DNA of 63,985 nucleotides, filler included, from Conidiobolus incongruus B7586 (lineage: Eukaryota), in assembly GCA_000697335.1 (NCBI GenBank). It is 10 parts of 10 records of this genome, joined end to end, with 100 filler letters (N's around TTAATTAATTAA, not from the genome) between each part and the next. Parts side by side here need not be neighbours in the genome. Positions count along the whole stretch, not along the records: positions 10,707 to 28,144 come from JNEM01006797.1; 9 more parts are not named here. One strand, given 5' to 3'. Position 1 is the first letter of the stretch; each line of letters opens with the position of its first letter. Made by a program: the position numbers and the translations under genes. Below the pieces are notes generated by a model. The model worked only from the letters and a program-made list of their open reading frames with translations. It ran no database searches and was not told where the DNA came from. Below, piece after piece: positions 1-61,062 of the stretch.

Positions 1-468
1 ATTAATAGTAAACTATATATTGCTTTTTTAAATAAAAGTATTTCTAATTAGTGTTCTCAATATAATTTGAGAAAACCTATTATTTTGCATGATAATTGCA
101 AAACACATAAATCTAAAGCTGTAAAAAACTTTCTAATTAAAAATAACTGGAAAGAACTACCACATCAGTATATTCCTTTGATTATAACCTATGTGATTAT
201 AATTGCTTTAGGCAATTAAAAAACCAGCTTGCAAGAAAGAAAATTTCTGCAGGAAAATTTAATTGGTTTGTGAAACATCAAATTTCAGTCTTTAATAAAA
301 AGAACTGTTTTTTAAGTGTTAGAAGTTTGCTAAAAGTATAGCAAAAAGTTATTAATAATAAAAGAAACTATTAAATTTATATTATATATTTATTTTTATA
401 TATCATATATTCAAATGTTTATTTATTTTTAATTGCAAAAAATTCCCATTATTAAAAATGCAGAGTAA
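1..468 (+). mobile_element. 3' part of mariner (DD34D) element, family A, inactivated
   Basis: Translates to ILHDNCKTHKSKAV...YNLCDYNCFRQLKNQ with a frameshift and stops; ends in the family right terminus ...cccattattaaaaatgcagagtaa followed by TA. Confidence 0.92.
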
Positions 469-2953
469 TATTAATTAAAGTAATATTTATATTATTTAAA
501 TTTAATATTATTTTATGTAATATATTCTATATAATAAATATTTTTATTAAAATATTATTATTTTTAATTATAAATTATTAAAATTAAATTTCAAAATTGA
601 ATTTGTTAATTTGAAATAATTATAAAAATCATTATTAATCTTGAATTCATTTATTTTTCAAATTTTAATTGATTTTTTTAATGTAAATATATTAGTAATG
701 TGATGAAATTGTCAAAGTAATAATATATTTCTGTTAAAAAAACTGCATGCAAAAATTATATTTAACAATATTTTGAAAAATTGCCAAGTAAATTAAATGT
801 AATATCAATAGAATTAAGTTTATATACTGATTAAAATCTTAAGTAATAACCATATTATGCGACAAATCAGATATTTTCTTCAGAATGTATTTTTTATTTC
901 TAATATCAATAGTAACGTTCATGCAATTTCGAATCCATATAATCATAATACGTTTCATATAGTTCACGAAAGTAGATCAAAATTCGATAATTTTATCAAA
1001 TGCAAAAAGAATAAATTTAACAATATTATTGATTGAAAATGGCTTTAATTTATAAATTATGAAGATTTATTGATATAGAAGTATTATTTGAAGATGATAA
1101 ATATAATTGGAAAATTCTATTAAAATTTTAAATATATTGAATTTTTAAACACTAATTGATTTTAATGAATTGAGAATAAAGATATTTTTAAATTTTATTC
1201 ATTAAATTGAAATTAGAATTTTTGCAAAATAATTGAATATATGAATGAAGAGTTTAAAATGCAATTATTTGATTTTAATGATATACTCATATGTTTACAA
1301 TTATTAAAATGGCAACAATTCCTCAAACTATATTCATATCAATTTGACTTTATTGACATTTAATATCCTAGCATTTAATGGAAAAAGCGTACTTTATTTC
1401 TGCAATGCATAAGAAAGTATGAAGATGATTATTGTAATTAAATGTGATTTCATATACTCGAAAATATTTTCAATTTGATTTCAAATGAAATTATTTGATC
1501 AAATTTGTTAATTTCATTATTATTTTTAATTTCTGATATAAATGGCTTAAAAATTGGTTTAATATAGCAATTATTCCTTTTAAAATTACTTAATAATTAA
1601 TTTGAAAAAAACTGGTTATATCCATTTAAACTATCTAAACTATCGCTTTGAATTATTTGGTTAATAAACAAATAAATTGTTATTCCTACTTTAAATTAAA
1701 TTTTGATTATTTTGGTTATTAAATCATTCAACCAACACCAATCATTCGACCAGCTTAATCAGCAATTAATAATTCAATTCAATTGGTGATCCAAAAATTT
1801 TGAACTACATTGCCTAATGGCAATTAGACAACATCTTTAATGGAATACTTTATATCAACAAATACAATTTTAATGGTTAATGTAGTACTTAATTATTTAA
1901 AAATATTGCCAATTTCCAAAATTTCATCCAATCAAATTGTATACACTGAAATATGGTTTAACTTCAGATATACTATTAATTTCATAAACAGTTTATATTA
2001 ATTTCTTTGCTGAATCTTTTTACTCTAATCATATTATGTTTAAATTTAACTAAATGATGAATATAAAAATATTATCACTATTGTTCAGACTTGAATAACT
2101 ATATATAACGATCATTATTCACAATGATTGGGAAAATTTGAACTAATAGATTAGAAGCATAATTCTAAGTTTAATACCATTCAATTTTTTTCAATTGTTT
2201 TTATAAGCATATTTGTACATTGATAAATATGTAAAATAGACTTAATGAAGAAACTAATATTGTTATCAAAAAACGTGACCAATTTAATCAATATGATGGC
2301 TGAATCGAACACAATTAACAGCGGCGTCAATTGCATAATAAATAGGAGAGGTGGATTTAGATTTGATACATTTCGGTCAGTTACAAACGTTCACTAATTT
2401 CCAATTTCAATACAAATGTGGAGACTTCCAGAATGTTATCGGAATAGAGACAACTTGGCATATTTCATTATAAATTTCAATATTATACTATAATATTAAA
2501 AATAATAATTATAGAGTTAGAGAGAGGTTCGGATGATTATTTACAATTAAATCATCACACTAAAGGAATATTCACACTATACAATATATGAAAAAATTTC
2601 CGATTTATCAACTATAATAATCCATAATATCAACAATGCAATTGTGTAGTGGGATGAGTTAATTGAGTTAATCTTAAAAATTGATCGATTGAGGGTCAAT
2701 TGGGGTTTAGTCAATCTTATTGGTTAATGTCTCAAATTTAAATTCATCGATACTTGAGTATAAATACACCGCCTTGAGTTCATTACAGATATTTCCTCAT
2801 CTCGAGTTTGGGATTAGCGTCGTTAATTAATTATTTTCTTATTATATTATACACCTGATATTTTTATATTGTGTTCTTAATATTTGGGATAGGATTGGGT
2901 AACATCATATTATAATTATTTCTGGTTTATTTTAATCAACAATCAATATCAAA

Positions 2954-5090: not shown

Positions 5091-5531
5091 ATGATGAAGA
5101 ATAATCTTGTCCATCACTCAAGAAACTCTGACTATTGCATTAATGCAAGAAGTCACATTGGAAGTACTTCATTTTATAAACTAGTCTAACTTAGTGCTTT
5201 CCACCTGAAGTTATTCATAGCCACCCAAACTCAACAATTGAACCTATTATAAGATCATCACAAGCCAATCAATAAACCTATCTTTCTATCTTCATTTTCA
5301 AAAGTATCCAGTCTCTAAGTTTTTCTCGTAACACTCACAAAACGTATTGAGTTGTGACGAGCGTGAGATATTTACTTTATTCGAAGACCTTGATTTGCAG
5401 TAAGCTATTTTCACCCAATTTGGTGAACCCTCTTAATTTCCCTTAACCTTGTGGTAATCTATCATTTAACCACTGGCGATTCCCCGTTTAAGCTCTAAAA
5501 GACTACTTCCTCCCACGTTTACGGTCGTCAT
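5091..5531. ncRNA. Candidate structured non-coding RNA, family unidentified
   Basis: GC- and CpG-retaining island with no long ORF, several hairpins and long-range complementarity (see findings). No known family motif recognised. Confidence 0.4.
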
Positions 5532-5975
5532 TTATATAAATATAATATTCAATATTTTACTCCTTAATAAAATTTATATTAATTATGTTTTTAATAAGAG
5601 AAAATTAAAAATTTATTAATTTTTGATTGTTAAAGTATATAATCAAATATAAAATTAAATATATATTAAAAATATTTAAAAAAATTTAATAATTCCAATA
5701 TATATATTAATAACTATTTTATATTAAAAATTTTTATTTAAAAATTTAATATTAAAATTAATTATATTAATATTAAATAATGATTTAAAATTCTTTTATA
5801 TAAAAATTATTATTAAATCTTAATTATAAACTTTTTATAATAGTTTAAAATATGGATATAATTTATAAAATTATTATATTATTTAAAAATATTATTTATC
5901 ACTAGATTTCTTATTTTGATATTAAAAATAATATTAATTAAAATTGACTATAATTTATTAAATAATTTTCTAATT

Positions 5976-6075
5976 NNNNNNNNNNNNNNNNNNNNNNNNN
6001 NNNNNNNNNNNNNNNNNNNTTAATTAATTAANNNNNNNNNNNNNNNNNNNNNNNNNNNNNNNNNNNNNNNNNNNN
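5976..6075. other. Assembly gap with artificial six-frame-stop linker TTAATTAATTAA; others at about 10607, 28145, 32315, 47591, 51423, 60351, 61598 and 62834
   Basis: The same ~100-bp N/TTAATTAATTAA/N block occurs nine times, mostly inside or beside repeats. Confidence 0.97.
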
Positions 6076-7269
6076 TATATATATATATATATAATAATTT
6101 TTTTGAGTAAAAATTAACTTTTTAAAATTAGTTGTTTAATTTAATTATACTTAAACTAAATAATAATCATCCAAAGTTTATTATTTGAGTATTAATTAAA
6201 CTTAACCATAAACCCTCTAACATTATTTAAAATTTACAAGCATCTTTTGGTAATAAAATATTATCTAAATTAATAATTTATTGTTAGGTAAATCACTTTA
6301 AAGCTAGCAAAAAAATTATCTAAAACTTGTTAAAATTTAGAAAACTAATTTTTACTGCTATTTTTTCAAATATTAATAGAGTGAAAAATTATATTGAAAA
6401 ACACCATTTTATTTTAACTAAAGAATTATCTAAATATTTTAATATTACTTTTATAAGTATTTTATACATATTAAAGTTTAAAGTCAAATTAATAAATAAA
6501 AATATAAAATAGGTATCTTATAATTTAACTAAAGCTTACAAATGTTAAGTAGTTATTGTTAAACAAAACTTATTAAAATATTACTAGAAGCCTAAACTTT
6601 TACAATAAATAATTACAATTGATGAATCTTAGATTATTATATATAATCCTTTATTAAAACACAAATCAAGATGTTAGATTAAGCTAAATTAACCTTTTTT
6701 ACAAATCCCTTAAAATAAATATTTTATTAATAAGCAAATGTTAATTATTATAATAAGTTATAATAGTATATGCTATTTCTATTTAGTTTCTAAAGGAAAA
6801 TCAATTAATAGTAAATTTTATATTGATTTTTTAAATAAAAGTATTTTTAATTAGGGTTTTCAGTATATTTTGAGTAGATCTCTTATTTTGCATAATAATT
6901 GCAAAATATATCAATCTAAAGTTATAAAAAGCTTTTTAATTAAAAATAACTGGAAAAACTACTATATCTAATATACTCTTTAGATTATAACCTATATAAT
7001 TATAATTGCTTTAGGTAATTAAAAAACTAGCTTACAAGAAAGAAAATTTTAACAAAAAAATTTAATTGGTTTGTAAAATATTAAATTTCATCTTTTAATA
7101 AAAAAACTGTTTTTTAAATATTTGATCTTTGTTAAAAGTATAGCAAGGATTATTAATAATAAATGAAACTTTTAAATATATATTATATATTTATTTTTAT
7201 ATATTTTATATTAAAATATTTATTTATTTTGAATTATAAATAATTCCCATTATTAAAAATATAGAGTAA
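6076..7269 (+). mobile_element. Mariner family A copy, heavily mutated, 5' end lost in gap
   Basis: Colinear with the copy at 11832-13150 (ITIDES*, ILHNNCK, YNLYNYNCF); right terminus ...aaaaatatagagtaa|TA. Confidence 0.92.
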
Positions 7270-7282
7270 TATTTTAAAAATA

Positions 7283-8855
7283 TACTAACCTATAAAAGTA
7301 AGTTATAAAATCAAAAACACCTATTTTTTTTACTAATAACTTGATTAATATTTAATGAAATAAACCTAAATTAAATAATTAAAATCTATTATATTTATTA
7401 ATTATATATATTATTAAATGATGTTATTTAGCTATTAATTGGTTAAAATATAAACCTTTAAATTTTACTTAAGGTGAGTTATAAATTTGTAGGTTTTTAA
7501 TAATAAAAAAAATTAACACTTAGTATATCTACCTTTAGCTTTTCTAACTTCTTTAAGTTTATAGGGTATAGAATTAATTAATATTTTATACTCAAAAAGG
7601 TTAATTTTGTTTTATATTTCTTAAATATATTCCTAAAGTTGATTTAAATCTTTTGTAAAAGGGAAAACTTTAATAGCTTTTTTTAACTAATCCTAAAGGT
7701 ATTTAATTAGATTAAAGTTAAAAGATTAAAAAAACTACTTTATAACTATTATCTTGTTATTTTTAAGCTATTTAGAAATAGAAGCTGTAGTATAGCAAAA
7801 AACATTATCTTACTGGAAAATAACATTAAATTTGTTTAACCTATACTATTCAATGGTTTTTTTCAATTTATAATTCAAAATACTTTAATATATCTTAGTA
7901 TTAATTCCCTTATTAACTTTATAAATATACCCTACACTTAAAAATAATATATATCCCTAAATAATAATTAACTTACCATTATACTTTTGGGTAAAATTAA
8001 CATAATAGTCACAAAGTAATTTTGTATCTTTTTTGAAACATCTAGCTTTTTTATTAGATTTACTAAGATATATTTTTGTTTTATTAAATTAAATAACCTT
8101 ACTTTAATTAATTTTGGTTTAATATTAGTGATGATATTTAAATTCCCATCTAGCTTTACAATAGGATTTCTTTAGTTAAGGGTGTTTTTTCTTGAGATGT
8201 AAGTAGTATCTATGTTAATATAAAGTACATATAATAGTATTAGTGCTAACTAATATTTTTATATAATTTCACAGTTCCTATTATATTTCTATAATAATAT
8301 TATACTTGCTTGTATTAATTAACCTATAAATATACTTCTTATTATATTCATTTATAATCTTAATATATTTAAGTTTAAGTTTAAATATTTCTTTATTACT
8401 AATTTTAATAACCTTAGCTATAATAGATTAACTAACACTAGTAATTCTAGTAATATCATAAGTTGATTTATCTTCTTTATAAAGTTAATTAATATACAAG
8501 TAAATTTTTTTAAAGAGGGATTTAGGTATAATAATACTAATAAAAAAAATTTTGTATATCTGTAAAATATTATATAAAATAATAACAAAGAGAAAAAAAA
8601 GATATAGTTACATATTGTTAAATATATCCCCTTATCTCAAAAACCTATAAATTTATAACTCACCTTAGTTAAATATTAATAGTTAATATTTTTGCTAATA
8701 ATTTACTAAATATATTTAAATAAATTAATTTATTATTAAATAATATATTTTAATAATAAATTATAGTTTCAAGTAATTTAATATATATAATTGTTTTAGT
8801 TATTAATTAAAATATATATATTTTTGATTTTATAACTCACTTTTATAGGTAAATA
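7283..8855 (-). mobile_element. Full-length (~1.57 kb) Tc1-like (DD34E-type) transposon relic
   Basis: Terminal inverted repeats TA|tactaacctataaaagtaagttataaaatcaaaaa ... tttttgattttataactcacttttataggt. The minus strand gives NVIFQ*DNV and other remnants of the Tc1 FQQDNAPCH/WPPQSPDLNPIE motifs. Confidence 0.88.
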
Positions 8856-8857
8856 TA

Positions 8858-10287
8858 TAAGTAAATATAATATTACTATAAAAGTATAATTAAAATTAAA
8901 AGATTATAAAGGAATATTAGTTAGTATTAATACTATTATATATAATTTATATTAGAGTAGATATTACTTATATTTTAATAAAAAATACCTTTAATTAAAA
9001 AAGTCCCATTATAAAAGTCAAAAAAAATTCAAAATTCATCATTAAAATTAAAATTAAAACTAACTAAAATAAGATTATTTTTTTAATAAAATAAATAAAT
9101 ATTTTATTAGATTTAATAAAAAAGCTAAATATTTTAAAAATATAAAAAATTACTTTATTATTATTATCATATTATAACATAAAAATACAATGATAAGTTA
9201 ATTATAAATTAATAATATATATTATTTTTAGATATAAAATATCTTTATAAAGTTCATAAAAGAATTAATATTGAGATATATTAAAATATTTTAAATAATC
9301 AATGGAAAAAAATTATTAAATGATATAAATTAAATATATTAAATATTATTTTCCAACAAAATAATATCCTTTGCTATATTATAAATTTCATTATTAAATG
9401 GCTTAAAATAACAAATTAATTATTATAAAATAACCTTTTTAATCTCTTATTTTAATCTAATTAATTATCTTTAGGATTAATTAAAATAATTAATTAAAGT
9501 TTTCCTTTTAATAAAGAATTTAAATCAATTTTAAAAGTATAAATAAGAAGCTTAAAATAATATTAGTTTTGATTAATATAAAAAGCTAGTTGACTTTATA
9601 TCTTATAAACTTAAAAAGGTTAAAAAAGCAAAATATAGATATTGTTAAGAGACTAGTCCTCTAAATTCTTATATATACTTTCATATAATCCAATTAACTA
9701 TAAATTATATAATTAATTTATACTTATATAGCTAAATTAATTATATAAATAGCATTGAATTATCTAATAAACTAGGTTCTTTTTTTTCCTCTCAATTCTT
9801 ACTATTTTTTACTTTTACACTATTTCTAAGATTGAGACTATATTCTGTCAATATTATAGGATATTGGCACTACCTAATATAAATCTTAATATATCAGTGA
9901 CTCATCCTAGTTCAAAGCTTAATTAAACTTTGTTTATACTTGCACACTATAGCCATATTATATTACCATGTTCTGCATACACTACTTTTATATTAAGTCT
10001 TCCTCTATACTATATTGGTTTAACTACCACTATACTTACAGATATATTAAATATTAGTTTTTTTATCAATATTAAAACCCACAAATTTATAACTTATTTT
10101 AGGTATATTTTTAGTTTTGATATATCAATTAATATTTATTTAAATCCAGCTTTATTTATTATATTATAGATTTCAAATATATATTAATTGAATAGTTTAA
10201 TATAAGTTTATTTATATTATAATTAATTAAGTTATTAATAGAAATATTCATTTATTTAATTTTATGACTTATTTTTGTAATCTAGTA
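8858..10287 (+). mobile_element. 5'-truncated Tc1-like copy interrupted by a solo LTR
   Basis: Colinear with 49087-50655; IFQQNN at ~9348; ends in TIR tttatgacttatttttgtaatctagta|TA. Confidence 0.85.
9643..10040 (+). mobile_element. Solo LTR (398 bp) of an LTR retrotransposon
   Basis: Starts TGTTAAG, ends CTTACA, flanked by 5-bp target-site duplication GATAT (9638-9642 and 10041-10045). Interrupts colinear Tc1 sequence; a second copy lies at 63103-63501. Confidence 0.9.
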
Positions 10288-11831
10288 TATAAGATGTTAA
10301 AATAAGTTATAAAATAAAATTAATTAAATTTATTAAATTAATAATTAATATATAAAATTACAATATTAATTAAAATATATAATAAGTCTATTTTAATTAA
10401 AAAAAATAATATTTAAGATATATTTATTTTTTTTCTAATTTTTTTAAATTTATAAGGTATAAGAATTATTGATTTATAATATTAAGCAAAATTAATATTA
10501 TTTTAGCTTTTTAAATATTTTTTTTAAAATAATTTGAATTTTTATCATAAAAATTAATTAATACTTTAATTAAACCAGAAATTATTCAATTAAATCAAGA
10601 TTATTANNNNNNNNNNNNNNNNNNNNNNNNNNNNNNNNNNNNNNNNNNNNTTAATTAATTAANNNNNNNNNNNNNNNNNNNNNNNNNNNNNNNNNNNNNN
10701 NNNNNNAATTAAATAATAATAATTAATTTAAACATTATATTATAAGATTAATTCTCTTTGAATATTAATGAAGATTAAGAAATTAAGGTTATTATTTAAT
10801 ATTTGATAATAATAAATTCTCAAATATAATATTATAAATTCAAATAATCAGATTTAGAATAAAAATCAATTTAAAAAACTTAACTGAATTAAGTTCTCTT
10901 ATATTTAATTTTAATCAAGGTATTATTAACTAAATTACAGATATATATAATATTATCTATATATTTTTATAAAACAAAACTTAAAGTTTCTATATTATCA
11001 TATTAATTCAAATTAATTTTAATTAATAAATTATTTAAATTTAATTAAAATATTAAGAAATCGGGTATTTAATTATTTTAAAAAATTCAGAGCTATTTAA
11101 ATAAAAAATAATAATTACTAACATATAAATGTCAATTTATAAATCAAAAATTTTGTCAAGTATTAAAATTACTTGAAAATTTGAAAAAAAATCAAATTTA
11201 TAAAATAAATAATAATAATATTTTATCAGGTTAATAATTATTAAAATGAATTCAATTAATTATTATAATATATTTCAAATATATAAAAATATTTATAATA
11301 TATTAATAAAGGTATTCTTGGTTAAAAATTATTAATTTAAATAATATAAATAATAAAAGCTTTTAAAATTTATTTATTATAAATATTAATCTTTCTGTCA
11401 TATCTGTCATATTTATTAGATATAAATCATAGTGATTAATATTATTTTGATATATTAAAAAAATATAATCAATTTTTTTCTTTAAATAATTTTTTGTATT
11501 TTTTGAAATTAAAGATATAATATATAAATCAAACTATAAGAATTTATATAAAGGGATTAATTGGTTTTTATTAATATTGAAATATATTATTAAAAAAGGA
11601 TATTATTAATTATCTAAGTTATATTATTTATATTCTATATATTATATATCTAAAATAGAAATTAAAAATTTATAAAATTATTTTTTGAATTAATGTATAT
11701 TATTATTAAATATCTAATAACTAAAATTATTTGTTTGATTTTGAATTAATAAGTATTATTTATAGAATTTGTAATAGTTTATTATCCAATGAATTAATTT
11801 CTAAATTAGAAAAAAATTATAAATAATAATA

Positions 11832-13150
11832 TTACTCTGTATTTTTAATAATGGGAATTTTTTGCAATTAAAAATAAATAAACATTTGAATATATGATAT
11901 ATAAAAATAAATATATAATATAAATTTAATAGTTTCCTTTATTATTAATAACTTTTTGCTATACTTTTGGTAAACTTCTAACACCTAAAAAACAGTTCTT
12001 TTTATTAAAGACTGAAATTTGATGTTTTACAAACCAATTAAATTTTCTTGCAGAAATTTTCTTTCCTGCAAGCTGGTTTTTTAATTGCCTAAAGCAATTA
12101 TAATCACATGGGTTATAATCAGGGGAATATACTAGATGTTGTAGTTCTTTCCAGTTATTTTTAATTAGAAAGTTTTTTACAGCTTTAAATTTATGTATTT
12201 TGTAATTATCATGCAAAATAATAGGTCTTCTCAAATTATATTAAGAACACCAATTAGAAATACTTTTATTTAAAAAAGCAATATATAGTTTACTATTAAT
12301 TGATTTTCCTTCAGGAACTAAATAAGAATAGCATATACTATTATAATCTATTGCAATAATTAACATTTGCTTATTAACAAAATGCTTATTTAAAGGGATT
12401 TATAGAGGGGGTTGATTTGGCTTAATCCAGCATTTTGATTTGTGTTTTAGTAAAGGATTATACATAAGGATCCAAGATTCATCAATTGTAATTATTTGCT
12501 GTAAAAGTTTAGGCTTCTAGTAATATTTTAATAGGTTTTGTTTAACAATAGCCACTCTAGCTTTTTTTAAGCTTTAGTTAAATTATAAGGTACCTATTTT
12601 GCATTTTTATTTATTAATTTTAGTTTAAACTTTAAAATATATCAAATACTTATAAGACTAATATTAGAGTGCTTAGATAATTCTCTAGCTGAAATAAAAG
12701 GGTGTTTTTCAATATATTTTTTCACTCTATTTACAATTGAAAGAGTAATAGTTGAAGTTGGTTTTCTAGATTTTAGCAGGTTTTAAATAGTTTCTCTTCT
12801 AGCTTTAAAGTAATTTACCCAGCAATAAATTGTTGATTTAGATAATGCTTCATTACCAAAAGCTGCTTGTAAATTTTGAATAATTTTAGAGGGTTTATGG
12901 TTAAGTTTTACTGATACCAAAATAAAAGACTTTTGATGATCACTATTTGGTTTAAGCATGATTAAATTAAACAACCAATTTTAAAAAGTTAATTTTTTAA
13001 TTAAAAAAACTAATATATATATAAATATATATATATATTAAAAATATATAATTTCCTATTAACTTTGTATATATTTATTCATTTCAAACTAATAATATGT
13101 TTGAAAAATTAGAAATTAAAAAATTTCCCATTATTTTAAATTCAAGGTAA
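11832..13150 (-). mobile_element. Full-length (~1.32 kb) mariner DD34D element, family A; transposase pseudogene (ATG at 12959 to stop near 11926)
   Basis: TA on both flanks, imperfect TIRs. Translation gives HTH region (EALSKSTIYCWVNYFK), K*VPYNL (WVPHEL-like), TIDESW, ILHDN and YSPDYNPCD, with 34 residues between the 2nd and 3rd Asp. Several in-frame stops. Confidence 0.95.
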
Positions 13151-14224
13151 TAAATTAAAAAAACTTTACTAATTAAAATAATTATAAATTTTTTTTCTAA
13201 TTGTTTTTTAAATCCAAATTGACCATTATTATATATAAGTGAGTGGATTTTAAATTTATATTATATTCTAAATAAAATTATAAATCTTGACTTTTTATAA
13301 TTAACTTCAGAAAAAATTCATTAGCAGTGAAGATGGAATTATTATCAAATCCTTAAACCCTTTGGATCTTAAAATACTCACTATCATTTAATTGCCATTA
13401 ATTATAATTGATAAAAATCAAACATCGCCTGATATATTGCTTATCCAATATGCAAATATCTTTATCATGCATTATATGCTCCTGATATTCTTGCCTCTAT
13501 TTGGGGTGATATATATATATATATAACCAAGATCAATAACACTCCTTATAATTACTCTATATTGATAACTAAAAAATATAGTAATAGCTATAATTTCTTA
13601 ATGTTGGGGAAGGTTATGCAAATAAATGATAGAGAAAATTATCTGATAATTAGTTAATATAGTTAATATTTACCATTATATTTTATCTCTATTAAATTAA
13701 CTAATTGTTTAAATATTAAATTATAAATTAGTTTTTAAATATTAGAATTACAAATTAAATATGAATAAATAATTTTATTTAATAACTCAATATTTATTCC
13801 TCCAATAATTATTAACTTATTAACTTATTAATCTATTAACCTGTTAACCTAATTTAACTTAAATTATGAATTATTGAAAAAATTAGTAATGATATAATAT
13901 AATTAGCTTTTTACTTAAGAATTTATATGATCCTAGCTTCTTTTACAGTCTTCTCATAATTATAAACTATGTAAAATTAGTAAGCCTTTTTGACTCTGCT
14001 ATTTAGTTGAAATATTTTGATTTATAACTTTGGAAAAAAATATAATAATGGAAAATTTCTTTAAGGAAAAACCTATATTATTGATACCCAGGTTGAATTT
14101 TTTACCTTATATTATTAATTAAATTTTTATTTGTATGAAAAATATTTATTTGAATTTTCCATATTTCATTAATTACTTTTATTTTAAATATTGAATTCTA
14201 ATTAAATTTGTGATTTTGACATTA

Positions 14225-15505
14225 TTAATACAGAAATTAAATAATGGTACAATTTTGAAATTAAAATTAAATAAATAAATTAATAAATAATATATAAAAG
14301 TTAATAGCCTCTTTTATTATTAATAGTTTTTTTCTATATTTTTGGTAAGCCTTTAATATTTAAAAATGGTTCTTTTTATTAATAACTGAAATTTGATAAT
14401 TTATAAACTAATTTAATTTATTTGCAAAGTATTTTTTTTCTTATAAGTTATTTTTTTGATTATTTATAGTAATTATAATCACATAAGTTATAATCAGGTA
14501 AATATATTAGATATGGTAACTCTCTTTATTTTTTTTATATAAAAAATGTTTTATAGTTTTAATTTTATATATTTCATAATTTTTATGCAAAATAATAAGT
14601 GTTTTAAAATTAAATTAAAAATACTATTTAAAAATTATTTTATTTAAAAAAATATATAATTTATTATTAATTAATTTCCCTTGAGATATTAAATAAAAAA
14701 AACTATATACTATTATAATCTATTATTATAATTATCATTTATTTATATTTGAAATACTTATTTACTAAAATTTATAAAAAAGATTAATTTAATTTAACTT
14801 AACATCTTGTTTAATTTTTAAGTAAAAGATTATATAAAAAAATTTAAGATTTATTAATTATAAGTATTTGCTATTAAAACCTTTATTTTTAGTTAAATTT
14901 AATAAGTTTAATTTAACTATAGCTACTCTAGTTTTTTTTTAGATATTTATTAAATTATAAAATATCTGTTTAATATCTTTGTTAATTAAATTAAGTTTAA
15001 ACTTAAGTATATATTATATGCTTATATAATTAATATTAAATTATTTTAATAATTCTTTAATAGAAATAAAAAGGAATTTCTTAATTTATTTTTTTATTTT
15101 TTTTATAAATAAAAGAGTAATAATATAAATTAATCTTTTAGCTTTTAGCAAATTTTAAATAATATCTTTTTTAACATTAAAATCACAAATCTAGCAATAT
15201 ATAGTAGTTTTAAATAAAGCACCATCTTTATAAGTTTTAAATGATTTTAAAGGGTTTATAATTAAGTTATAAAGATACAAAAATGAAAGCCTTTTCATAA
15301 TTATTATTTAATTTAAATATAATTAAATTTAAGTGTAAATTTTGAAATCAAAATATTTTAATAAAAATATAATTAAAATTAAATATATATAGTTTAGAAA
15401 TATTTATTTTCCTATATATTTTATATATATATAATCTTTTAAAATATATAATATGTTTGAAAGATCAGAAATAAAAAATTTACCATTTTTTAATTTCCAT
15501 ACTAA
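14225..15505 (-). mobile_element. Full-length mariner subfamily B copy, very heavily mutated
   Basis: Colinear with family A but with different termini (ttaatacagaaattaaataatggtacaatttt ... aaaatttaccattttttaatttccatactaa|TA) that match the copy at 59582. Confidence 0.85.
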
Positions 15506-17275
15506 TAAATTAGCAATTTAGTGATAAATAGGAGTTTATATTTTCAATTGTTTGATTAAAATTGATTTATTAATTTGAATTTAATGAGACTATAACCTTA
15601 TATAATGGATCTGTGTCAATTAATTCCTAGTTTATCACTGAAAAATTACCAATTATATATTAACTACAGCTAGTTTTAATAAAAATTTGAATTATAATAC
15701 ACTTGATGCATTTATATGTTTTTAATTCATCAAGTTTTATTTCAGTATTTCTTGTTTACAATATAATAAGATAGAAAAGAATATATATGCTAAGTATTAA
15801 GTTGTCTCAAATTATCCTATCTAGGTCTAATTCATCTCACCATTTATAAGTATAGCACTTAAAAAATGAAATATTAATTAAATACAATACTTTTTCATAA
15901 AATTTATTTGCGCTGTTTCAAACAACATTAGTATATCGAAGAGCTATATTCATTGATTGTATTTGAAATAAATTTGTTAATTATAAATATATGGAAACAA
16001 TGAAGTGTTACAAATTTTGTATAATAAGGCTCAAACAATCCAAAAATTCCTATTGGAACAGTTTATATAATAAAAATTAACTGTCGGAACCAATATTTTT
16101 TAAACGTTTAAAAAACCTTGACATTATCAAAGTCGTATTAATGAAAAAAGTCGATAAACTACGAGTATTAAAGCATTTTATTAAATGCCTCTAACTGAAG
16201 GTTTTAACCAGGTAATTTCATGAATTTCGAAATAAGAGTTTTATTCTTAACTATAATTTTAATATTTATTGTAATTAATTTAAAATTTGAAGAATAAATA
16301 ATATAACCAAATCCTATTTATAAATCAATAGTAATTATTCAATATTGACTTAGTCACTAATTTAAGTAAACTTTTCATATTATATATATATTCTATTCAG
16401 TTTCGATATTATACCAAAGCGAAAATTACAAAAAATAGTAAACAATTTAATTAAATAACATTATTCAATAAATTATATATATACTGTTATTAAATTAATT
16501 ATGATTAAAGACTGTTTATTTAAAGTATATAAAATTTCATACTACTCTATGCTTTCACAGCTAAATAACCATACTGTTGAATTGATGATTTCAAAGTTGT
16601 TATTTAAAATTTATTAATATTGAAAATGGATTCTTTTTAACTTGATTCAATTAAATAATCTAGAATATCATTTGATTTATTAATATTGGAATTAAAATAA
16701 TATTCCTTAAATTTTTTTATAAAACAACTCAAGTAAATATATTTTCAATATTTAATAACTTTTACTGTGTTCATAATAAGTCAAACAATTCTAATTATTA
16801 TTGATAAATAAATGAATAAACACTATTAATATAATATTGAACTTATTATTCTAGAATAAATGGTATTAAAATCATTACAAAAACATTATACTATTTATAT
16901 ATAGATTTGTCGAATTAAATTTTAATTGATAAAATATAGTTATAACACTCGAGATTAATCCAATATCTAGTAAAGATATCATAATTTTAATGACATTATA
17001 GTGTTTATAATTTCTGTAATAAATTTCTTATTTAGATATTTTTACACCTTTGAACTGAATATTATAGTGATTTTGTATTGAATATCGAATAAAATAATTA
17101 AAATAAAAGTCAGAAATGGATTATTAATACCTAATGTTATAAATACTACGGATTAAAGATCGATTAATAAATATTACAATAATCATATAAAATTTGAGTG
17201 TATTATGAAGCATTTCTTTTTTATTGAGAAGTGAAATAGGGATTGAACAGGGGAAAAAAGAAACACTCACTAAAA

Positions 17276-26413: not shown

Positions 26414-26886
26414 ATTTGAAGTTGATAATTTAGTTGCTGGAATTGATTAAAGTTCAAAATCTAAAGAAACGAAATAGAGTTAATAGTACTTTCATTAATC
26501 TTTTTATAATTTTAAATGTTCATTCAATATTCATTAGACCAGAAAAAACTATGCTTCAATTATCTCATAAATTCAAACTAAATTTAAATAACATTATTCA
26601 ATTACATCATAATATAATCAAATTATCCTAATAATAATAATGATCTAACTAAAAATGCTTTGTAAAAGCAAAAAAATCTTAATTGAAATAATATTAAAAT
26701 GAGAGAAAATAATATTCTTTTAATATTCATAAAATTCCAAAAAACTAGTTCATAATTATTTTTGATATTATTTATAATAGAAACATTAGTTAAACATTTA
26801 ATAGTATAGCTAATTAATAGGATAATTGAAATATTAAAAAATATAGATAATTTTTCAAATTATAAACTCTAACCAAATTTATAATA

Positions 26887-28144
26887 TTACTATAGAATTA
26901 AAGAAATGGGAAATTTTTTAATTATCTGATTTTTCAAATATATTATTAGTTTCAAATAAAAAATATATACAAAACAAATAGGAAAATAAATAGTTTTGAA
27001 TTATATATATATATATATAATTTTTTTGATTAAAAAATTTATTTTTTATAATTAGTTGTTTAATTTAATTATGCTTAAATTAAATAATAACTATCAAAAG
27101 TCTTTTATTTTAATACTAATAAAATTTAATTACAAACTCTTTAAAATTATTTAAAATTTACAAGCAACTTTTAATAATAAAGCATTATTTAAATTAACAA
27201 TTTATCACTAGGTAAATTACTTTAAAGTTAAGAAAAAAACTACCTAAAACCTATTAAAATTTAAAAGATTAATTTTAACTATTATTTTTTTAATTATTAA
27301 TAAAATGAAAAATTATATTAAAAAACACTTTTTTATTTTAATTAAAGAATTATAAAGGTACTTTAATATTAGTTATATAAGTATTTTATATATATTAAAA
27401 TTTAAATTAAAATTAATTAATAAAAATATAAAATAAGTACCTTATAATTTAACTAAAGCTTAAAATAAATTAGAGTAGCTATTGTTAAATAAAACTTACT
27501 AAGGTATAATTAGAAATTAAAGCTTTTATAATAAATAATTATAATTAATGAATCTTAATTTTTTTTATATAATCTTTTATTAAAACATAAATCAAAGTGT
27601 TATATTAAGTTAAATTAACCTTTTTTACAAATTTCTTTAAATAAACACTTTATTAATCAATGAATATTAATTGCTAAAATAAATTATAATAATATATACT
27701 ATTCTTATTTAATTTTTAAAAAAATTAATTAATAGTAAACTTTATATTGTTTTTTTAAATAAAAGTATTTCTAATTAATATTCTTAATAAAATTTGAGAA
27801 AACTTATTATTTTATATGATAATTATAAAATACATAAATCTAAAGCTATAAAAAAACTTTTTAATTAAAAATAACTAGAAAAAACTACCATATCTAGTAT
27901 ATTTTTTAAATTATAACCTATATAATTATAATTGCTTTAAATAATTAACAAACTAGCTTGCAAGAAAAAAAATTTTTATAAGAAAATTTAATTAGTTTAT
28001 AAAATAATAAATTTCTATCTTTAATAAAAAGAATTATTTTTTAGGTATTAGAAGTTTGCTAAAAATATAACAAAAAGCTATTAATGAAAAAACTATTAAA
28101 TTTATATTATATATTTATTTTTATATATTATATATTAAATTATT
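26887..28144 (+). mobile_element. Mariner family A copy, heavily mutated, right end lost in gap
   Basis: Left terminus TA|ttactatagaattaaagaaatgggaaatttttt; colinear with the other copies up to the gap. Confidence 0.9.
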
Positions 28145-30562
28145 NNNNNNNNNNNNNNNNNNNNNNNNNNNNNNNNNNNNNNNNNNNNTTAATTAATTAA
28201 NNNNNNNNNNNNNNNNNNNNNNNNNNNNNNNNNNNNNNNNNNNNTTATTTATTTATTTATTTTGGAAATATTATTCTTTGAAAATATTTTCTTGTGTTTC
28301 CATTAATATTAATGAGAAATAACTTTTTATTAACTCCTCAAATATAGCTTACGATTTATTTATATTCGAATTAATATAAATAAACCAAATTAAAATTTTA
28401 ATAAAATTTTAAATTCTATTTTTTATAAATTAGGAAATAGCAAATATTAAAACAGTAAAATTTATCTTATTCAATAAAATTCATGTAATTATCCTTGAAA
28501 TTATCATTAAACCCTTAAACTTATTTTAAAAATGTCAAACTAACTCAACAGTGATTTTATTTAATGGCAAGTGTGTTAATTTTAAATCAAGCTTTCGGCA
28601 TTATAATAATCTCTTTTAAATATCTCCTAAATAATAAATTACATTAAACCCAAAAAGGCTTCAAATTCTTGTTTAAGCTGGCACGCTTGAGAGGATAAAG
28701 TTTCATTACCATTAAATATGAAATTTCTAATTTGGTTTAGAAGGCATTGATCCAAAACATGTAGGAGGGTATATAATAGTTCATCATGCAATAATCATGA
28801 ATTAAGCTTGAATCCAATTGACGGCTTGAATGAATTAAATTTGCTCTACTATCTCCATTTAGAAGCATTACACTAATTGTTAATGATCTTTTTAATGCGT
28901 ATTATATGAGGTGATAATATAAGTTTAGATAAATTATTTATATTCGTATCAGAAACATTGTGTTAATTTATAGAATATCAATACTATTTATATCAGTTTC
29001 AATTATTTTTGTTTATTTAATCAAATAAATTTTTAAAATTAAATTTTAATTAAAAATTTTGTAAGTTATGTAATTTTATAATAGTAATTATGATAAATTA
29101 ATTAACCCTAGTAACTTTGATTTATAATTTATTTTCATAATATATACAATTTGATAATGTTTAATCAGTGAATTAGATTCAGAAGTGATGAACAAATTCA
29201 AGTAATTGCCAACTAATTCTAAATATAACAAAATATTAAATACAGTTCTTGATGATTACCAATATGCTTGAAATTAGTGGAATTAACCCAATTTTGCAAA
29301 CTTTAAATTATTAATTAAAATATCCAACTCAAAAATAACTTGATAACAATTATTTAAATTACCAAATCCAGTCAATTTCGGATAGAAAAATTGTGAAAAG
29401 ATTAATTAATACAATATTAATTAATAAATTAAATAATTACAAAATTGATCAAATAATGCTAAAGTAGAATAGCCCTTATTGCCAAGACATGGATACATAT
29501 GAAAGAATCCTATCTGAAATAATTTGTATTTTTTCAAAATGTTGAATCTAATCTTAATAATTAATAAAAATATTAGTATAATATGTTAAAAATTAATTTA
29601 ATAATAATATTAATAAAATCAAAATTTTAAAAACTAAATTTTTCACTTCACAGTATAATCAACTTAATATATATATATATATTATAATATTACAAATAAA
29701 ATTATGACTTTAGAGATATAATTCAGTATAATTAATTAATTAATTAATACACTAATCAATATTGTTATCAATAATGCTTTTAAATTTAATAGCATACAAG
29801 CTTTGTTATATTAATAATTAATTTTTTTAAAATGATAAAATTAATTAATAAAATATCAAATTATATTATTAAAATATAAAATTTAAAATAAACATTAATA
29901 AAACTAGGGGTATATTATAGTTTGAAACGGTTATAAATGAATTAAAAAATTGGACTCAATATAAACATCACGTTCATTGTTTTTAATTTAAACTCATACG
30001 CCTAGAACGAATCAATGTTATTAGCATTATTAAATAGCAAACCTAATAAAAAAATTATTAAAACTGAGGACATGATAACTTTTAAGTAGTACGAATCAAT
30101 TAACGATTCAAAATATTTATTGGTGACCTTACCTACCTGTTTTGGAACAAAGAATTCCAATTTTTATAACTCAAATTGATTAATTCAAAACAATTTTATT
30201 TATTAATTACATGAATTTAATTTGATTTCATTTGTCACAATTATTACTTTGTTTTTTAATTTGATTGTGAAATATATTTATTAAAATAATTTTTATATAA
30301 TAATAAAAATTTTCTAGTAGTTATCATTTTAAAATATTAAAAAAAATTAAAATTATATTTGATTAATTCATCATTATTCAATAGGAAATAATTGATATTA
30401 TGTAATAGATGACAATATTCTTAAATTATTTTATTTTGAAAAATATTAAGTTTGAAAATATGATAATTTTATTTAAAAATTAAATTAAAATTAATAATTA
30501 TCAAAATGATTTTATTAAAGAATATTATCTTCAATAGTTTATATTTACCTTTTTTTAACTTT

Positions 30563-47100: not shown

Positions 47101-48174
47101 AAATTTGATTGATTATAAGTTGATTAGATAAGCTCAACATTTTATGAATGAATTTTTTGAATCAAAATTATAAAAATAGAATTTATTAATTCTCTAAAAA
47201 TATTAAGTATAAAAATTTTAATTTAAAAAAGAATTTGATTATAGTCAGTTATTTAATAGTTCCATTGTGGAATATGATTAATAACAATGGTTGACCACTT
47301 TGTGGTCAATTAGCTCCATATACATTGGCTTTGGATTAATGGCCGCAATATAGTAATAGTATTAATTATATATTCCAATTTAATGATTTAAAATTATTAT
47401 TAACAATATTGGAAGATCTGATATTATACAAAAAGGATATTTTTAACAATTACTTGGCAATGATATTAAGGAATTTAATATAATTTTTTAAATATAAAAC
47501 AAATTATTTTTGGATTTTAAAAACCAAAAAAAAATTTATTTAATATATATTATTTTATAAGTTTAAATGGGTATTATATTTTATCTTTATNNNNNNNNNN
47601 NNNNNNNNNNNNNNNNNNNNNNNNNNNNNNNNNNTTAATTAATTAANNNNNNNNNNNNNNNNNNNNNNNNNNNNNNNNNNNNNNNNNNNNAATATAATAA
47701 ATAATATTATTTTATAATTTTAATAATAGGAATTTTTTGCAATTGTAAATAAATAAATATTTTTATATATAATATATAAAAATAAATATATAATATAAAT
47801 TTTATAGTTATTTTATTAATAACTTTTTATTATATTTTTAATAAACATTTAATATTTAAAAAATTATTCTTTTTATTAAAGACTGAAATTTGATATTTTA
47901 TAAACTAATTAAATTTTTTTGCAAAAATTTTCTTTCTTATAAGTAGGTTTTTTAATTTCTTAAAAAATTTATTTAAAGGAATATATAAAGGTAATTAATT
48001 CACTTTAATTAAATATTTTGATTTGTTTTTTAACTAAGAACTATATATAAAGATTTAAGATTCATTAATTATAATTATTTGTTATAAAAGTTTAGGTTCC
48101 TAGAAATATTTCAATAAGTTTTGTTTAATAATAACTACTTTAGCTTTTAAGTTTTAGTTAAATTATAAGATATA

Positions 48175-61060: not shown

Positions 61061-61062
61061 TA

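What the first reader, a model, noticed from the sequence alone, without database searches (positions are those of the whole stretch)
11832..13150. RIP-like CpA>TpA hypermutation of repeats in an apparently early-diverging fungus
Seen: differences among the mariner, Tc1 and LTR copies are overwhelmingly C>T/G>A, mostly at CpA/TpG, and each copy carries a different subset. Examples: attCaaaat (this copy) vs attTaaaat (~61318); tgcTGGgta (~61376) vs tgtTAGgta (~6282); attCaaaac (~61412) vs attTaaaac (this copy); gtaTGG (copy B ~59710) vs gtaTAG (~337, ~7138, ~52977). The Tc1 FQQDN codons are hit differently at ~7805, ~9351, ~50119 and ~50790. Long copies are essentially CpG-free while neighbouring exons keep CpG. 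Established: CpA-biased RIP is a defence of filamentous ascomycetes and needs RID. Inference: an analogous homology-directed mutator, or dense CpG/CpA methylation with deamination, acts here. Some changes (e.g. TGG>TAA) fall in other contexts.
Basis: partly seen in the sequence, partly recalled or inferred. Interest (0 to 1): 0.8.

Follow-up and report, generated by a model that had tools for sequence, protein, structure and literature searches.

The report
Transposon copies eroded by C-to-T change
Dead mariner and Tc1-like transposon copies in a relative of the fungus Conidiobolus coronatus contain no CG step at all and have lost up to about half of their C and G letters to C-to-T change while neighbouring genes have not, which is likely slow damage from DNA methylation aimed at transposons rather than the classic fungal repeat-mutating defence (RIP).

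Summary
The 18 kb of mariner/Tc1-like blocks hold 0 CpG against 110 expected. Unique intergenic DNA (o/e 0.59) and exon-like DNA (0.66) keep CpG. The six longest CpG-free stretches of the window all sit on these blocks.

Differences between the youngest copy pairs are 64 transitions to 6 transversions. Choosing the G/C state at transition columns reopens the transposase frame. A non-stationary likelihood model gives C>T about 29 times T>C per site, a root GC of 0.29 and an equilibrium GC of 0.04-0.09.

The claim "mostly at CpA" fails: CpA takes 35% of events and holds 31% of the C sites. The order is CpG >> CpA > CpT > CpC. There are no strand-coordinated runs, and C>T load rises with other changes.

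The organism is a relative of Conidiobolus coronatus (71% protein identity), so "early-diverging fungus" holds.

Best reading: transposon-targeted cytosine methylation plus deamination. A RIP-like mutator is not excluded. RIP-index signals in allied Entomophthorales are already in print (PMC10515909). No genome was held, so DNA methyltransferases and 5mC could not be checked.

The parts
11832..13150 (-). Mariner copy A1, the finding's own copy. It is full length (1319 nt), the least decayed of the long copies (GC 0.217), and holds 0 CpG. TA lies at 11830-11831 and at 13151-13152.
   Evidence: Searches show the inverted ends and the TA flanks. One search gives HTH_48 E 6.2e-5, Transposase_1 E 4.2e-5 and DDE_3 E 6.3e-6, all just under the curated cut-offs. 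One search counts 32 stops. One search gives the composition.
51798..53122 (+). Mariner copy A2 (GC 0.172, 0 CpG).
   Evidence: 89.8% identity to A1.
6076..7273 (+). Mariner copy A3, cut off by a contig end (GC 0.153, 0 CpG).
   Evidence: 85.2% to A1.
26836..28144 (+). Mariner copy A4, heavily decayed (GC 0.116, 0 CpG). It has lost 54-62% of the inferred ancestral G/C.
   Evidence: A1-A4 differ by 186 transitions and 40 transversions.
14271..15512 (-). Mariner copy A5, of a second subfamily, heavily decayed (GC 0.120, 0 CpG).
   Evidence: 74%.
1..506 (+). Partial mariner copy A6 at the window edge, close to A1.
   Evidence: 94.1%. A1-A6 differ by 17 transitions and 1 transversion over 470 nt.
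59594..60124 (-). Partial mariner copy A7, of the same subfamily as A5 but little decayed.
   Evidence: A5-A7 differ by 77 transitions and 16 transversions; 66 of the 77 transitions are G/C in A7 against A/T in A5.
61045..61597 (+). Partial mariner copy A8, close to A1.
   Evidence: 92.8%; 24 transitions and 3 transversions.
47693..48172 (-). Partial mariner copy A9 with an internal deletion, heavily decayed (GC 0.112).
58414..58694 (.). A 281-nt internally deleted (MITE-like) mariner derivative, 85 nt from tRNA-Lys(CTT). It keeps a CG at 58615 where all 5 aligned long copies have CA or TA.
   Evidence: the two ends match A1 at 86-89%; alignment; tRNA.
7275..8862 (-). Tc1-like copy B1, full length with inverted ends of about 220 nt (GC 0.167, 0 CpG).
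   Evidence: HTH_Tnp_Tc3_2 E 0.0041, below the cut-off. FQ*DN.
49080..50665 (+). Tc1-like copy B2, full length (GC 0.157, 0 CpG).
   Evidence: no Pfam hit.
61698..62833 (-). Tc1-like copy B3a, cut off by a contig end. It has the highest C>T excess of its family.
   Evidence: B1-B3a differ by 137 transitions and 18 transversions. C>T multiplier 17.4.
63522..63985 (-). Tc1-like partial copy B3b.
48152..49089 (+). Tc1-like partial copy B4.
8842..9642 (+). Tc1-like partial copy B5.
   Evidence: FQQNN.
50653..51325 (+). Tc1-like partial copy B6.
   Evidence: F*QDN.
60451..61066 (+). Tc1-like partial copy B7.
60115..60349 (+). Tc1-like end fragment B8.
   Evidence: 90.6%.
63105..63503 (.). Young repeat pair with 9641-10038 in inverted orientation. 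The two differ by 23 transitions and 2 transversions.
   Evidence: 93.5%.
47344..53446 (.). The longest CpG-free stretch (6102 nt). Expected CpG is 33.6; the GpC count is 57.
5526..11062 (.). CpG-free stretch of 5536 nt (26.5 CpG expected, 43 GpC).
59490..63985 (.). CpG-free stretch of 4495 nt (28.8 CpG expected, 33 GpC).
11062..15911 (.). Two adjoining CpG-free stretches (2364 and 2485 nt) separated by the single CpG at 13426. They cover A1 and A5.
26470..28352 (.). CpG-free stretch of 1882 nt over A4.

Best explanation
The mariner and Tc1-like copies in this window carry no CpG at all and have lost 9-63% of their inferred ancestral G and C to C>T/G>A transitions; this is likely the slow product of cytosine methylation aimed at transposons, followed by deamination of 5-methylcytosine to thymine. 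On that reading methylation is near-complete at CpG and partial at CpA > CpT > CpC.

Shown by my calls:
- The loss is confined to the transposon blocks and about 250 nt of their flanks.
- Its direction is G/C>A/T.
- It takes CpG first.
- It hits both strands evenly and without runs.
- It grows with the age of a copy.
- It drives copies from about 29% GC towards 4-9% GC, below the 19% of unique non-coding DNA.

Inferred, not shown:
- That 5mC is the intermediate.
- That DNMT1-type and DIM-2-type enzymes write it.
- That targeting goes through heterochromatin or small RNA rather than DNA-DNA homology.
For: 1. Restriction to transposons.
- There are 0 CpG in 18,002 nt of mariner/Tc1 blocks against 109.8 expected. 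Deep unique intergenic DNA has 108 against 183.9 and exon-like DNA 277 against 421.9.
- In GC-matched 200-nt windows, transposon DNA has 0 against 105.6 expected (83 windows) and unique DNA 92 against 161.1 (92 windows).
- The six longest CpG-free stretches (22.9 kb, 129.6 CpG expected, 216 GpC) all lie on these blocks.
- CpG o/e in non-transposon DNA is 0.18-0.19 within 250 nt of a block, 0.61 at 250-500 nt and 0.74-1.03 beyond.

2. CpGs were there and were lost.
- At 17 sites some copies have TG and others CA. None of 97 site-copies is intact, against 121/337 and 52/212 intact for GpC.
- The 281-nt deletion derivative keeps CG where 5 of 5 long copies have CA or TA.

3. Direction.
- A G/C-preferring consensus opens frames of 196 and 166 codons, against 62 for the majority consensus.
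- The stationary model is rejected (2dlnL 174.9 and 103.7, 1 df).

4. Spectrum, the same in two unrelated families.
- C>T 1: C>A 0.04-0.06: C>G 0.02-0.04: T>C 0.033-0.035: T>A 0.05: T>G 0.007-0.010.
- Equilibrium GC is 0.036-0.086 for every root within 31 lnL units of the best.
- The oldest copies are already at GC 0.112-0.122, below the unique intergenic 0.187 and the six short introns at 0.12-0.24.

5. Context: CpG 0.68 > CpA 0.56 > CpT 0.50 > CpC 0.39 mutated. This is the order I recall for CG and non-CG preference of DNMT-type enzymes; that is recall, not a call.

6. Gradual accumulation.
- C>T branch length tracks the length from other changes (Spearman 0.77, p 0.015; and 0.64, p 0.066).
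- There is no excess of same-strand neighbours (1350 observed, 1343.8 expected, p 0.39).

7. Literature (passages read).
- Repeat-restricted 5mC, CG-enriched, is reported in the early-diverging fungi Phycomyces and Linderina (PMC11258239) and Rhizopus microsporus (PMC12019607).
- All Entomophthorales examined, C. coronatus included, carry PF00145 genes (PMC10515909).
- CpG or CpG+CpA C>T signatures in Microbotryum and Tuber are attributed to 5mC deamination (PMC4352252).
Against: - No methylation data and no genome were available, so neither 5mC nor any DNMT was seen in this organism.
- PMC11258239 (Discussion passage) calls 5mC scarce in Zoopagomycota.
- Non-CpG loss is almost context-free (CHG 0.55 against CHH 0.48, no +2 effect). 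It could therefore come from deamination of unmethylated cytosine in silent chromatin.
- The ratio of C>T to other changes differs among terminal branches (2dlnL 25.4 and 31.4, 8 df, p 0.0013 and 0.00012; multipliers 2-18). A strict clock does not predict this.
- Unique intergenic DNA and introns may be held above their mutational equilibrium by selection, which would weaken the 0.04-0.09 against 0.19 contrast.
- A conservative parsimony reading of young pairs allows an equilibrium near 0.12. That figure is my arithmetic on the counts.
- All numbers come from one 64-kb window made of 10 joined contigs and from two transposon families.
Confidence: 0.5

Rival explanations
1. A RIP-like, repeat-directed cytosine mutator works here outside Dikarya. 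It would be either homology-triggered around nuclear fusion or a methyltransferase-dependent mitotic mutator of the Dim2 kind. Its target range would be broad (CpN, with CpG and CpA favoured), and it would actively convert C to T in duplicated DNA.
For: - The composite RIP index is above 0 in 15 of 17 windows that are at least 80% transposon, and in 0 of 81 windows under 20% transposon.
- In the mariner family (CpA+TpG)/(ApC+GpT) falls from 1.39 in the G/C-preferring ancestor to 1.18, 0.86, 0.81 and 0.63 as load rises.
- Ts:Tv is 64:6 in the three youngest pairs.
- C>T excess is uneven among copies of similar age: A4 has a multiplier of 17.7 and B3a 17.4, against 2-5 for others.
- The only short (281-nt) derivative keeps a CpG that 5 of 5 long copies lost, as a length threshold would predict (n = 1).
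- PMC10515909 (passages) reports the same index positive over 24.2% of the Zoophthora radicans genome, and RID-architecture methyltransferases in three Entomophthorales.
- PMC8016269 (passages) shows a Dim2-dependent mitotic C>T mutator in transposons.
Against: - CpA takes 35% of events for 31% of sites. This compares with 90% of sites in Leptosphaeria (PMC4352252) and over 98% in the Zymoseptoria experiment (PMC8016269).
- CpG is hit hardest, whereas the Dim2 mutator spares CpG (PMC8016269).
- There are no strand-coordinated runs.
- C>T load tracks other changes.
- Repeats of 400-560 nt that are 94-96% identical persist with only 17-24 transitions between them.
- PMC12543289 (abstract and passages) finds repeat-enriched RIP-like signatures only in ascomycetes.
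Confidence: 0.3
2. This is ordinary neutral decay under a genome-wide GC>AT mutation bias. Dead transposons that entered at about 29% GC simply drift to the AT-rich background, and nothing targets repeats.
For: - The window is AT-rich throughout its non-coding DNA (GC 0.14-0.19).
- Loss occurs in every context and on both strands.
- Load scales with age.
- Other short AT-rich repeats (5.9 kb, GC 0.089) have CpG o/e 0.53, like unique DNA.
Against: - It cannot explain 0 of about 110 expected CpG in transposons against o/e 0.59 in unique DNA of matched GC.
- It cannot explain the exact overlap of CpG-free stretches with transposon blocks.
- It cannot explain the opposite CpA/TpG bias: 0.72-0.74 in transposons against 1.09-1.14 in unique DNA.
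- Transposon equilibrium GC is 0.04-0.09, and old copies at 0.11-0.12 already lie below unique intergenic DNA (0.187) and short introns (0.12-0.24). Host four-fold sites are at GC 0.24-0.63.
Confidence: 0.1
3. The CpG-free, CpA-poor make-up is an inherited property of these transposon families, from a donor genome or from long adaptation to the host, and not the result of mutation after insertion.
For: - Even the least decayed copies (A1, A6, A8) have 0 CpG.
- The G/C-preferring ancestors are already CpG-poor (o/e 0.29 and 0.22). The Tc1-like ancestor already has (CpA+TpG)/(ApC+GpT) of 0.82.
- A1/A6/A8 share their CpG losses by descent.
Against: - TG-versus-CA splits at 17 sites and the CG retained in the short derivative show CpGs lost within the family's history in this genome.
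- The indices worsen step by step with each copy's load.
- CpG depletion spills into the flanks.
- Two unrelated families show the same spectrum.
Confidence: 0.05

Closest known systems
Repeat-induced point mutation (RIP) of Neurospora crassa and other Pezizomycotina (RID-dependent)
   Same: C:G>T:A transitions are confined to repeated DNA. Stop codons are created. TpA/ApT rises and (CpA+TpG)/(ApC+GpT) falls. The composite index is positive only on repeats.
   Different: The target preference is CpG >> CpA > CpT > CpC with only a mild CpA excess. There are no strand-coordinated runs. Accumulation is gradual. The host is an entomophthoralean fungus, outside Dikarya. RID could not be looked for.
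CpG, or CpG plus CpA, C>T signatures of transposons in Microbotryum, rusts and Tuber melanosporum, attributed to 5mC deamination (PMC4352252, passages read)
   Same: CpG is the primary target, with a secondary CpA component as in Tuber. The signature is restricted to transposons. Methylation and deamination is the proposed cause.
   Different: CpG removal here is total (0 of about 110 expected). Loss at CpT and CpC is nearly as strong as at CpA, taking copies to 11-12% GC. The lineage is different.
Composite-RIP-index signal in Zoophthora radicans and other Entomophthorales (PMC10515909, passages read)
   Same: The same fungal order and the same index are involved, and the index is positive on repeats. 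That paper already raises RIP outside Dikarya and notes PF00145 methyltransferases in all species examined.
   Different: In the passages I read, that work is based on a composition index and gives no alignment-based spectrum. I did not see index values for Conidiobolus or Neoconidiobolus; they may sit in its Fig. 2E or supplements. Here the spectrum, direction, context and strand behaviour are measured on aligned copies.
Dim2-dependent mitotic C>T mutation in transposons of Zymoseptoria tritici (PMC8016269, passages read)
   Same: A C>T excess is confined to methylated transposons, arises without meiosis, and lowers CA/TG while raising TA.
   Different: There over 98% of C>T changes fall at CA and CpG is spared. 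Here CpG is lost first and CpA is only mildly favoured.
Repeat-restricted 5mC in the early-diverging fungi Phycomyces, Linderina pennispora and Rhizopus microsporus (PMC11258239 and PMC12019607, passages read)
   Same: Cytosine methylation there is concentrated on repeats and DNA transposons, enriched at CG. That pattern would produce what is seen here.
   Different: Those are direct methylation maps. Here only the presumed mutational footprint is seen.

Membership tests
RIP (Neurospora type) | C:G>T:A transitions restricted to repeated DNA | tested here: met
   C>T is 16-29 times any other per-site rate in both families. The composite index is above 0 in 15 of 17 transposon windows and 0 of 81 non-transposon windows.
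RIP (Neurospora type) | Strong dinucleotide preference, canonically CpA>TpA | tested here: not met
   CpA takes 857 of 2423 events (35%) for 31% of sites. Fractions mutated are CpG 0.68, CpA 0.56, CpT 0.50 and CpC 0.39.
RIP (Neurospora type) | Bursts in which one DNA strand is deaminated, giving runs of C>T or of G>A | tested here: not met
   Same-strand neighbour pairs number 1350 observed against 1343.8 +/- 21.6 expected (p 0.39). Under the stricter ancestor rule they number 637 against 665.5 (p 0.97). After many rounds such runs could be blurred.
RIP (Neurospora type) | Acts only on duplicates above a length and identity threshold | tested here: inconclusive
   A 281-nt derivative keeps one CpG that 5 of 5 long copies lost, which is a single site. 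Repeats of 400-560 nt at 94-96% identity persist.
RIP (Neurospora type) | RID/Masc1-class methyltransferase present; premeiotic timing | not testable with these tools
   No genome is held for the window.
Methylation-driven decay of transposons (5mC deamination) | CpG depletion confined to transposons, with TpG/CpA as products | tested here: met
   0 against 109.8 expected CpG in transposon blocks, against o/e 0.59-0.66 elsewhere. At 17 sites copies split into TG and CA, with 0 of 97 site-copies intact.
Methylation-driven decay of transposons (5mC deamination) | Gradual accumulation on both strands | tested here: met
   Spearman 0.77 and 0.64 between C>T load and other changes. C>T and G>A are balanced in every copy. 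Residual heterogeneity among copies is significant.
Methylation-driven decay of transposons (5mC deamination) | 5mC actually present on the transposons | not testable with these tools
   Only the source sample's four coded DNA runs hold the stretch. No methylation data were available.
Methylation-driven decay of transposons (5mC deamination) | C5 DNA methyltransferase (DNMT1, DIM-2 or DNMT5) encoded | not testable with these tools
   No genome was held. PMC10515909 states that all Entomophthorales in its set, which includes C. coronatus, have PF00145 genes (passage read).
mariner (Mos1-like, Tc1/mariner superfamily) | HTH_48 DNA-binding domain plus a DDE/D catalytic domain, short inverted ends, TA duplication | tested here: met
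   Pfam hits score 23.5, 23.8 and 26.5 bits, each 0.2-2.1 bits under the curated cut-off, in a copy with 32 stops. The G/C-preferring consensus shows D..D..D blocks. Inverted ends of about 30 nt and TA flanks are visible.
Tc1-like element (family B) | Tc3-type HTH, DDE with an FQQDN-like block, inverted ends | tested here: inconclusive
   The only hit is HTH_Tnp_Tc3_2 at E 0.0041, 17.8 bits against a cut-off of 31.5. Nine further frames of three copies gave no hit. FQ*DN, FQQNN and F*QDN are present. Inverted ends of about 220 nt are present.

The most novel reading that the evidence does not exclude
A true repeat-directed cytosine mutator operates in Entomophthorales, outside Dikarya. It would be a RIP analogue with broad CpN specificity, perhaps driven by a DIM-2- or RID-like methyltransferase. 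It would have built this genome's AT-rich non-coding compartment by eroding transposons to under 10% GC while host genes keep GC3 near 0.44.
Probability: 0.2. Interest if true: 0.8.

Novelty: new member of a known kind. Interest (0 to 1): 0.45.

Why it matters
Whether anything like RIP exists outside Dikarya is an open question.
- One comparative paper reports RIP-index signals in Entomophthorales (PMC10515909).
- A kingdom-wide screen finds such signatures only in ascomycetes (PMC12543289).

This window gives alignment-level evidence from a Conidiobolus relative. C>T erosion is real, strong and confined to transposons. Its spectrum (CpG first, then CpA > CpT > CpC, no strand runs, gradual) looks like methylation damage rather than RIP.

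It also shows that a positive composite RIP index can arise without a CpA-specific mutator, which bears on how index-based claims are read.

If the process is methylation-driven, these fungi, reported as 5mC-poor, would still carry enough transposon-directed 5mC to shape genome composition.

Tried and rejected
- Whole genome: none is held, so there was no genome-wide RIPCAL-type analysis and no search for DNMTs.
- Sequencing runs: only four coded DNA runs of the source sample hold the stretch, and no RNA holder is listed.
- The search for related loci in metagenome contigs found nothing, first with P0002 and then with alignment A1.
- The protein atlas gave no usable taxon. The HMG-box ORF found no relatives.
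- The search of earlier findings by place and by sequence found nothing.
- Majority-rule singleton polarisation was rejected. Parallel C>T in several copies makes retained C look like T>C; it gave 143 transitions to 129 transversions and an absurd equilibrium GC of 0.30.
- Pairwise counts on untrimmed alignments inflated transversions through non-homologous flanks. One search replaces them.
- One script gave no answer. It was re-run in parts without the bootstrap, so no bootstrap interval is reported.
- The methyltransferase-like gene at 24240-26340 had no Pfam hit. Its only match to a solved structure was at E 0.4.
- Other Tc1-like copies had no Pfam hit.
- CHG against CHH and the +2 base showed no marked effect.
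- Literature searches listed no paper that reports an alignment-based C>T spectrum for Conidiobolus. I read passages of only some of the listed papers.
Full report
**What the window is**

The window has 63,985 bases at about 21% GC. It is not one contiguous piece. Nine gaps each read N44-TTAATTAATTAA-N44, so ten contigs have been joined by a stop-codon linker. No whole genome is held.

Host ORFs are moderately GC-rich: GC 0.36-0.47, with GC3 of 0.44 for the two longest. Introns are short (46-61 nt, GT..AG in the clear cases) with GC 0.12-0.24.

The Ostalpha-family ORF (P0002; Pfam) has only two relatives in the 5.8-billion-protein search, both at 69% identity. The cluster of one of them contains KXN73582.1 of Conidiobolus coronatus NRRL 28638. 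That protein is 71% identical to P0002 over 401 residues. The lineage is Entomophthorales. The species itself was not named, and I did not try to name it.

**The repeats**

Self-comparison marks about 25.5 kb as repeated. Two families dominate.

- Family A is a Mos1-like mariner.
  - The finding's interval, 11832-13150, is exactly one element. It has ~30-nt inverted ends and TA on both sides.
  - Its minus strand gives HTH_48, Transposase_1 and DDE_3 hits just under the curated cut-offs, with 32 stops in frame.
  - There are four other long copies, four partial copies and a 281-nt internally deleted derivative.
- Family B has ~220-nt inverted ends, an FQQDN-like block and one weak Tc3-HTH hit. 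Nine further frames gave no Pfam hit. "Tc1-like" is therefore tentative.

**Are the differences mostly transitions, and in which direction?**

- On alignments trimmed to the elements, the three youngest pairs differ by 17:1, 24:3 and 23:2 transitions to transversions. B1-B3a gives 137:18. Older pairs fall to 1.5-4.8 as G/C sites run out and A<->T changes build up.
- An earlier count on untrimmed alignments had inflated the transversions and is superseded.
- Direction cannot be read from majority rule. Three things settle it:
  1. Taking the G/C state at C/T and G/A columns opens mariner frames of 196 and 166 codons carrying the catalytic D..D..D blocks. The majority consensus opens only 62.
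  2. Pairwise asymmetry. For example, 158 sites are G/C in A1 and A/T in A4, against 32 the other way.
  3. A strand-symmetric, non-stationary likelihood model on the FastTree topology rejects stationarity, with 2dlnL of 174.9 and 103.7 at 1 df.
- The two families give nearly the same rates. C>T 1: C>A 0.036/0.061: C>G 0.038/0.018: T>C 0.035/0.033: T>A 0.050/0.051: T>G 0.010/0.007. Root GC is 0.291 in both. Equilibrium GC is 0.042 and 0.036.
- Equilibrium GC stays at 0.036-0.086 for every root within 31 lnL units of the best. Only roots on decayed tips, 48-92 units worse, give 0.14-0.15.
- Copies have lost 9-55% of ancestral G/C under the strict rule, or 29-63% under the lenient rule.

**Is it specific to repeats?**

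- The mariner/Tc1 blocks (18,002 nt, GC 0.156) contain 0 CpG against 109.8 expected.
- Deep unique intergenic DNA (21,154 nt, GC 0.187) has 108 against 183.9. Exon-like DNA has 277 against 421.9.
- In GC-matched 200-nt windows, transposon DNA has 0 against 105.6 expected and unique DNA 92 against 161.1.
- An unbiased scan finds that the six longest CpG-free stretches (1.9-6.1 kb) all lie on these blocks. They hold 216 GpC but no CpG.
- CpG o/e in non-transposon DNA is 0.18-0.19 within 250 nt of a block, and normal beyond 500 nt.
- CpA and TpG are under-represented in the blocks (0.72, 0.74) and over-represented in unique DNA (1.09, 1.14).
- The composite RIP index, as used in PMC10515909, is positive in 15 of 17 windows that are at least 80% transposon, in 4 of 10 mixed windows and in 0 of 81 others.
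- The oldest copies (GC 0.112-0.122) are already below unique intergenic DNA and introns. Host four-fold sites are at GC 0.24-0.63.
- The repeat spectrum is therefore not the one that maintains the rest of the window. Selection on unique DNA could account for part of the gap.

**Context**

Pooled over both families, the fraction of ancestral C site-copies changed to T is:

| Context | Changed / total | Fraction |
|---|---|---|
| CpG | 129/189 | 0.68 |
| CpA | 857/1535 | 0.56 |
| CpT | 1003/2025 | 0.50 |
| CpC | 434/1125 | 0.39 |

- CpA takes 35% of events for 31% of sites. "Mostly CpA" is therefore wrong, although the CpA excess is real. In the mariner family (CpA+TpG)/(ApC+GpT) falls from 1.39 in the ancestor to 0.63 in the most decayed copy.
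- CpG is destroyed in every copy. At 17 sites some copies have TG and others CA, and 0 of 97 site-copies are intact. GpC is intact in 121/337 and 52/212.
- The 281-nt derivative next to a tRNA-Lys gene keeps CG where the long copies have CA (3) or TA (2).
- CHG against CHH (0.55 against 0.48) and the +2 base add little.

**Tempo and strands**

- C>T and G>A are balanced in each copy.
- Mutated sites show no excess of same-strand neighbours: 1350 against 1343.8 +/- 21.6, p 0.39; under the stricter rule 637 against 665.5, p 0.97.
- C>T is 16-fold (family A) and 3-fold (family B) higher on terminal than on internal branches. Most of it therefore arose after each copy was laid down.
- A1/A6/A8 share their CpG losses, so already-decayed copies were still being duplicated.
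- Per-branch C>T length tracks the length from other changes: Spearman 0.77, p 0.015, and 0.64, p 0.066.
- Significant heterogeneity remains, with multipliers of 2-18 and p of 0.0013 and 0.00012.

**Reading**

The CpG-first order, the two-strand and run-free pattern, the roughly clock-like build-up and the spill into flanks fit transposon-directed cytosine methylation followed by 5mC deamination.

- Repeat-restricted, CG-enriched 5mC is documented in other early-diverging fungi (PMC11258239 and PMC12019607, passages).
- PF00145 genes are reported in all Entomophthorales examined, C. coronatus included (PMC10515909, passages).
- CpG or CpG+CpA signatures in Microbotryum and Tuber are explained the same way (PMC4352252, passages).

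I put this reading at about 0.5.

A repeat-directed mutator with broad specificity remains possible, at about 0.3.
- The RIP index is strongly positive and the excess is uneven among copies.
- PMC10515909 reports the same index over 24.2% of Zoophthora radicans and raises RIP outside Dikarya.
- PMC8016269 shows a Dim2-dependent mitotic mutator, though one that targets CA and spares CG.
- Against this, PMC12543289 finds repeat-enriched RIP-like signatures only in ascomycetes.

Plain neutral decay (about 0.1) fails on the CpG contrast.

I treat it as a lead, not as support.

**Limits**

- The evidence comes from one window and two families.
- There is no genome, no methylation data and no neutral polymorphism control.
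- The bootstrap was not run, because that script was lost.
- I read passages of the cited papers, not whole texts. I did not see Fig. 2E or the supplements of PMC10515909, or Supplementary Data 4 of PMC11258239. These may hold RIP-index or methyltransferase data for Conidiobolus.

Noticed in passing
window 5976-6075, 10607-10706, 28145-28244, 32315-32414, 47591-47690, 51423-51522, 60351-60450, 61598-61697, 62834-62933: Each gap reads N44 + TTAATTAATTAA + N44, a six-frame stop linker. The window is therefore ten contigs joined end to end, and neighbouring pieces need not be neighbours in the genome. Most joins sit at repeat copies.
   Followed up: partly
window 24240-26340 (+): A multi-exon, CpG-rich gene carries methyltransferase-like motifs: a GxG-type motif I, then LSHPPY, then RVLKMGG. 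It has no Pfam hit. Its only match to a solved structure is a weak one (E 0.4) to a putative modification methylase, 2zie. PMC11258239 lists a metB adenine methylase in C. coronatus (KXN73575.1) whose accession is 7 away from the Ostalpha orthologue KXN73582.1. Whether this gene is its counterpart was not tested, and it did not hit PF02384.
   Followed up: partly
window 58414-58694 and 58779-58851: A 281-nt internally deleted mariner derivative lies 85 nt from a tRNA-Lys(CTT) gene. It is the only mariner-derived piece in the window that still has a CpG.
   Followed up: partly
window 21223-24135 (+): An uninterrupted 970-codon ORF encodes an MBT repeat plus PHD-like zinc fingers (zf-HC5HC2H). 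The only relative found (74% identity) belongs to a cluster held by Logan and JGI/IMG.
   Followed up: partly
window 7275-10603 and 47691-51422: The Tc1-like copies sit as nested, inverted and near-tandem arrays, with a roughly 900-nt period between 48169-49095 and 49081-49997. Some of this may be assembly collapse at contig ends.
   Followed up: no
window 3875-5971, 10921-11750, 30281-34274, 35164-35565, 38596-39635: Short, low-identity (65-72%) repeats of very low GC (0.089 overall) keep CpG at o/e 0.53, like unique DNA. They may be very old transposon relics or simple AT-rich sequence.
   Followed up: no
host ORFs, e.g. 21223-24132 and 56712-57869: Host coding DNA has GC3 near 0.44 and four-fold-site GC of 0.24-0.63. 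Six short introns of one neighbouring multi-exon gene (24463-25871) are at GC 0.12-0.24. This is a sharp compositional split between coding and non-coding DNA.
   Followed up: partly
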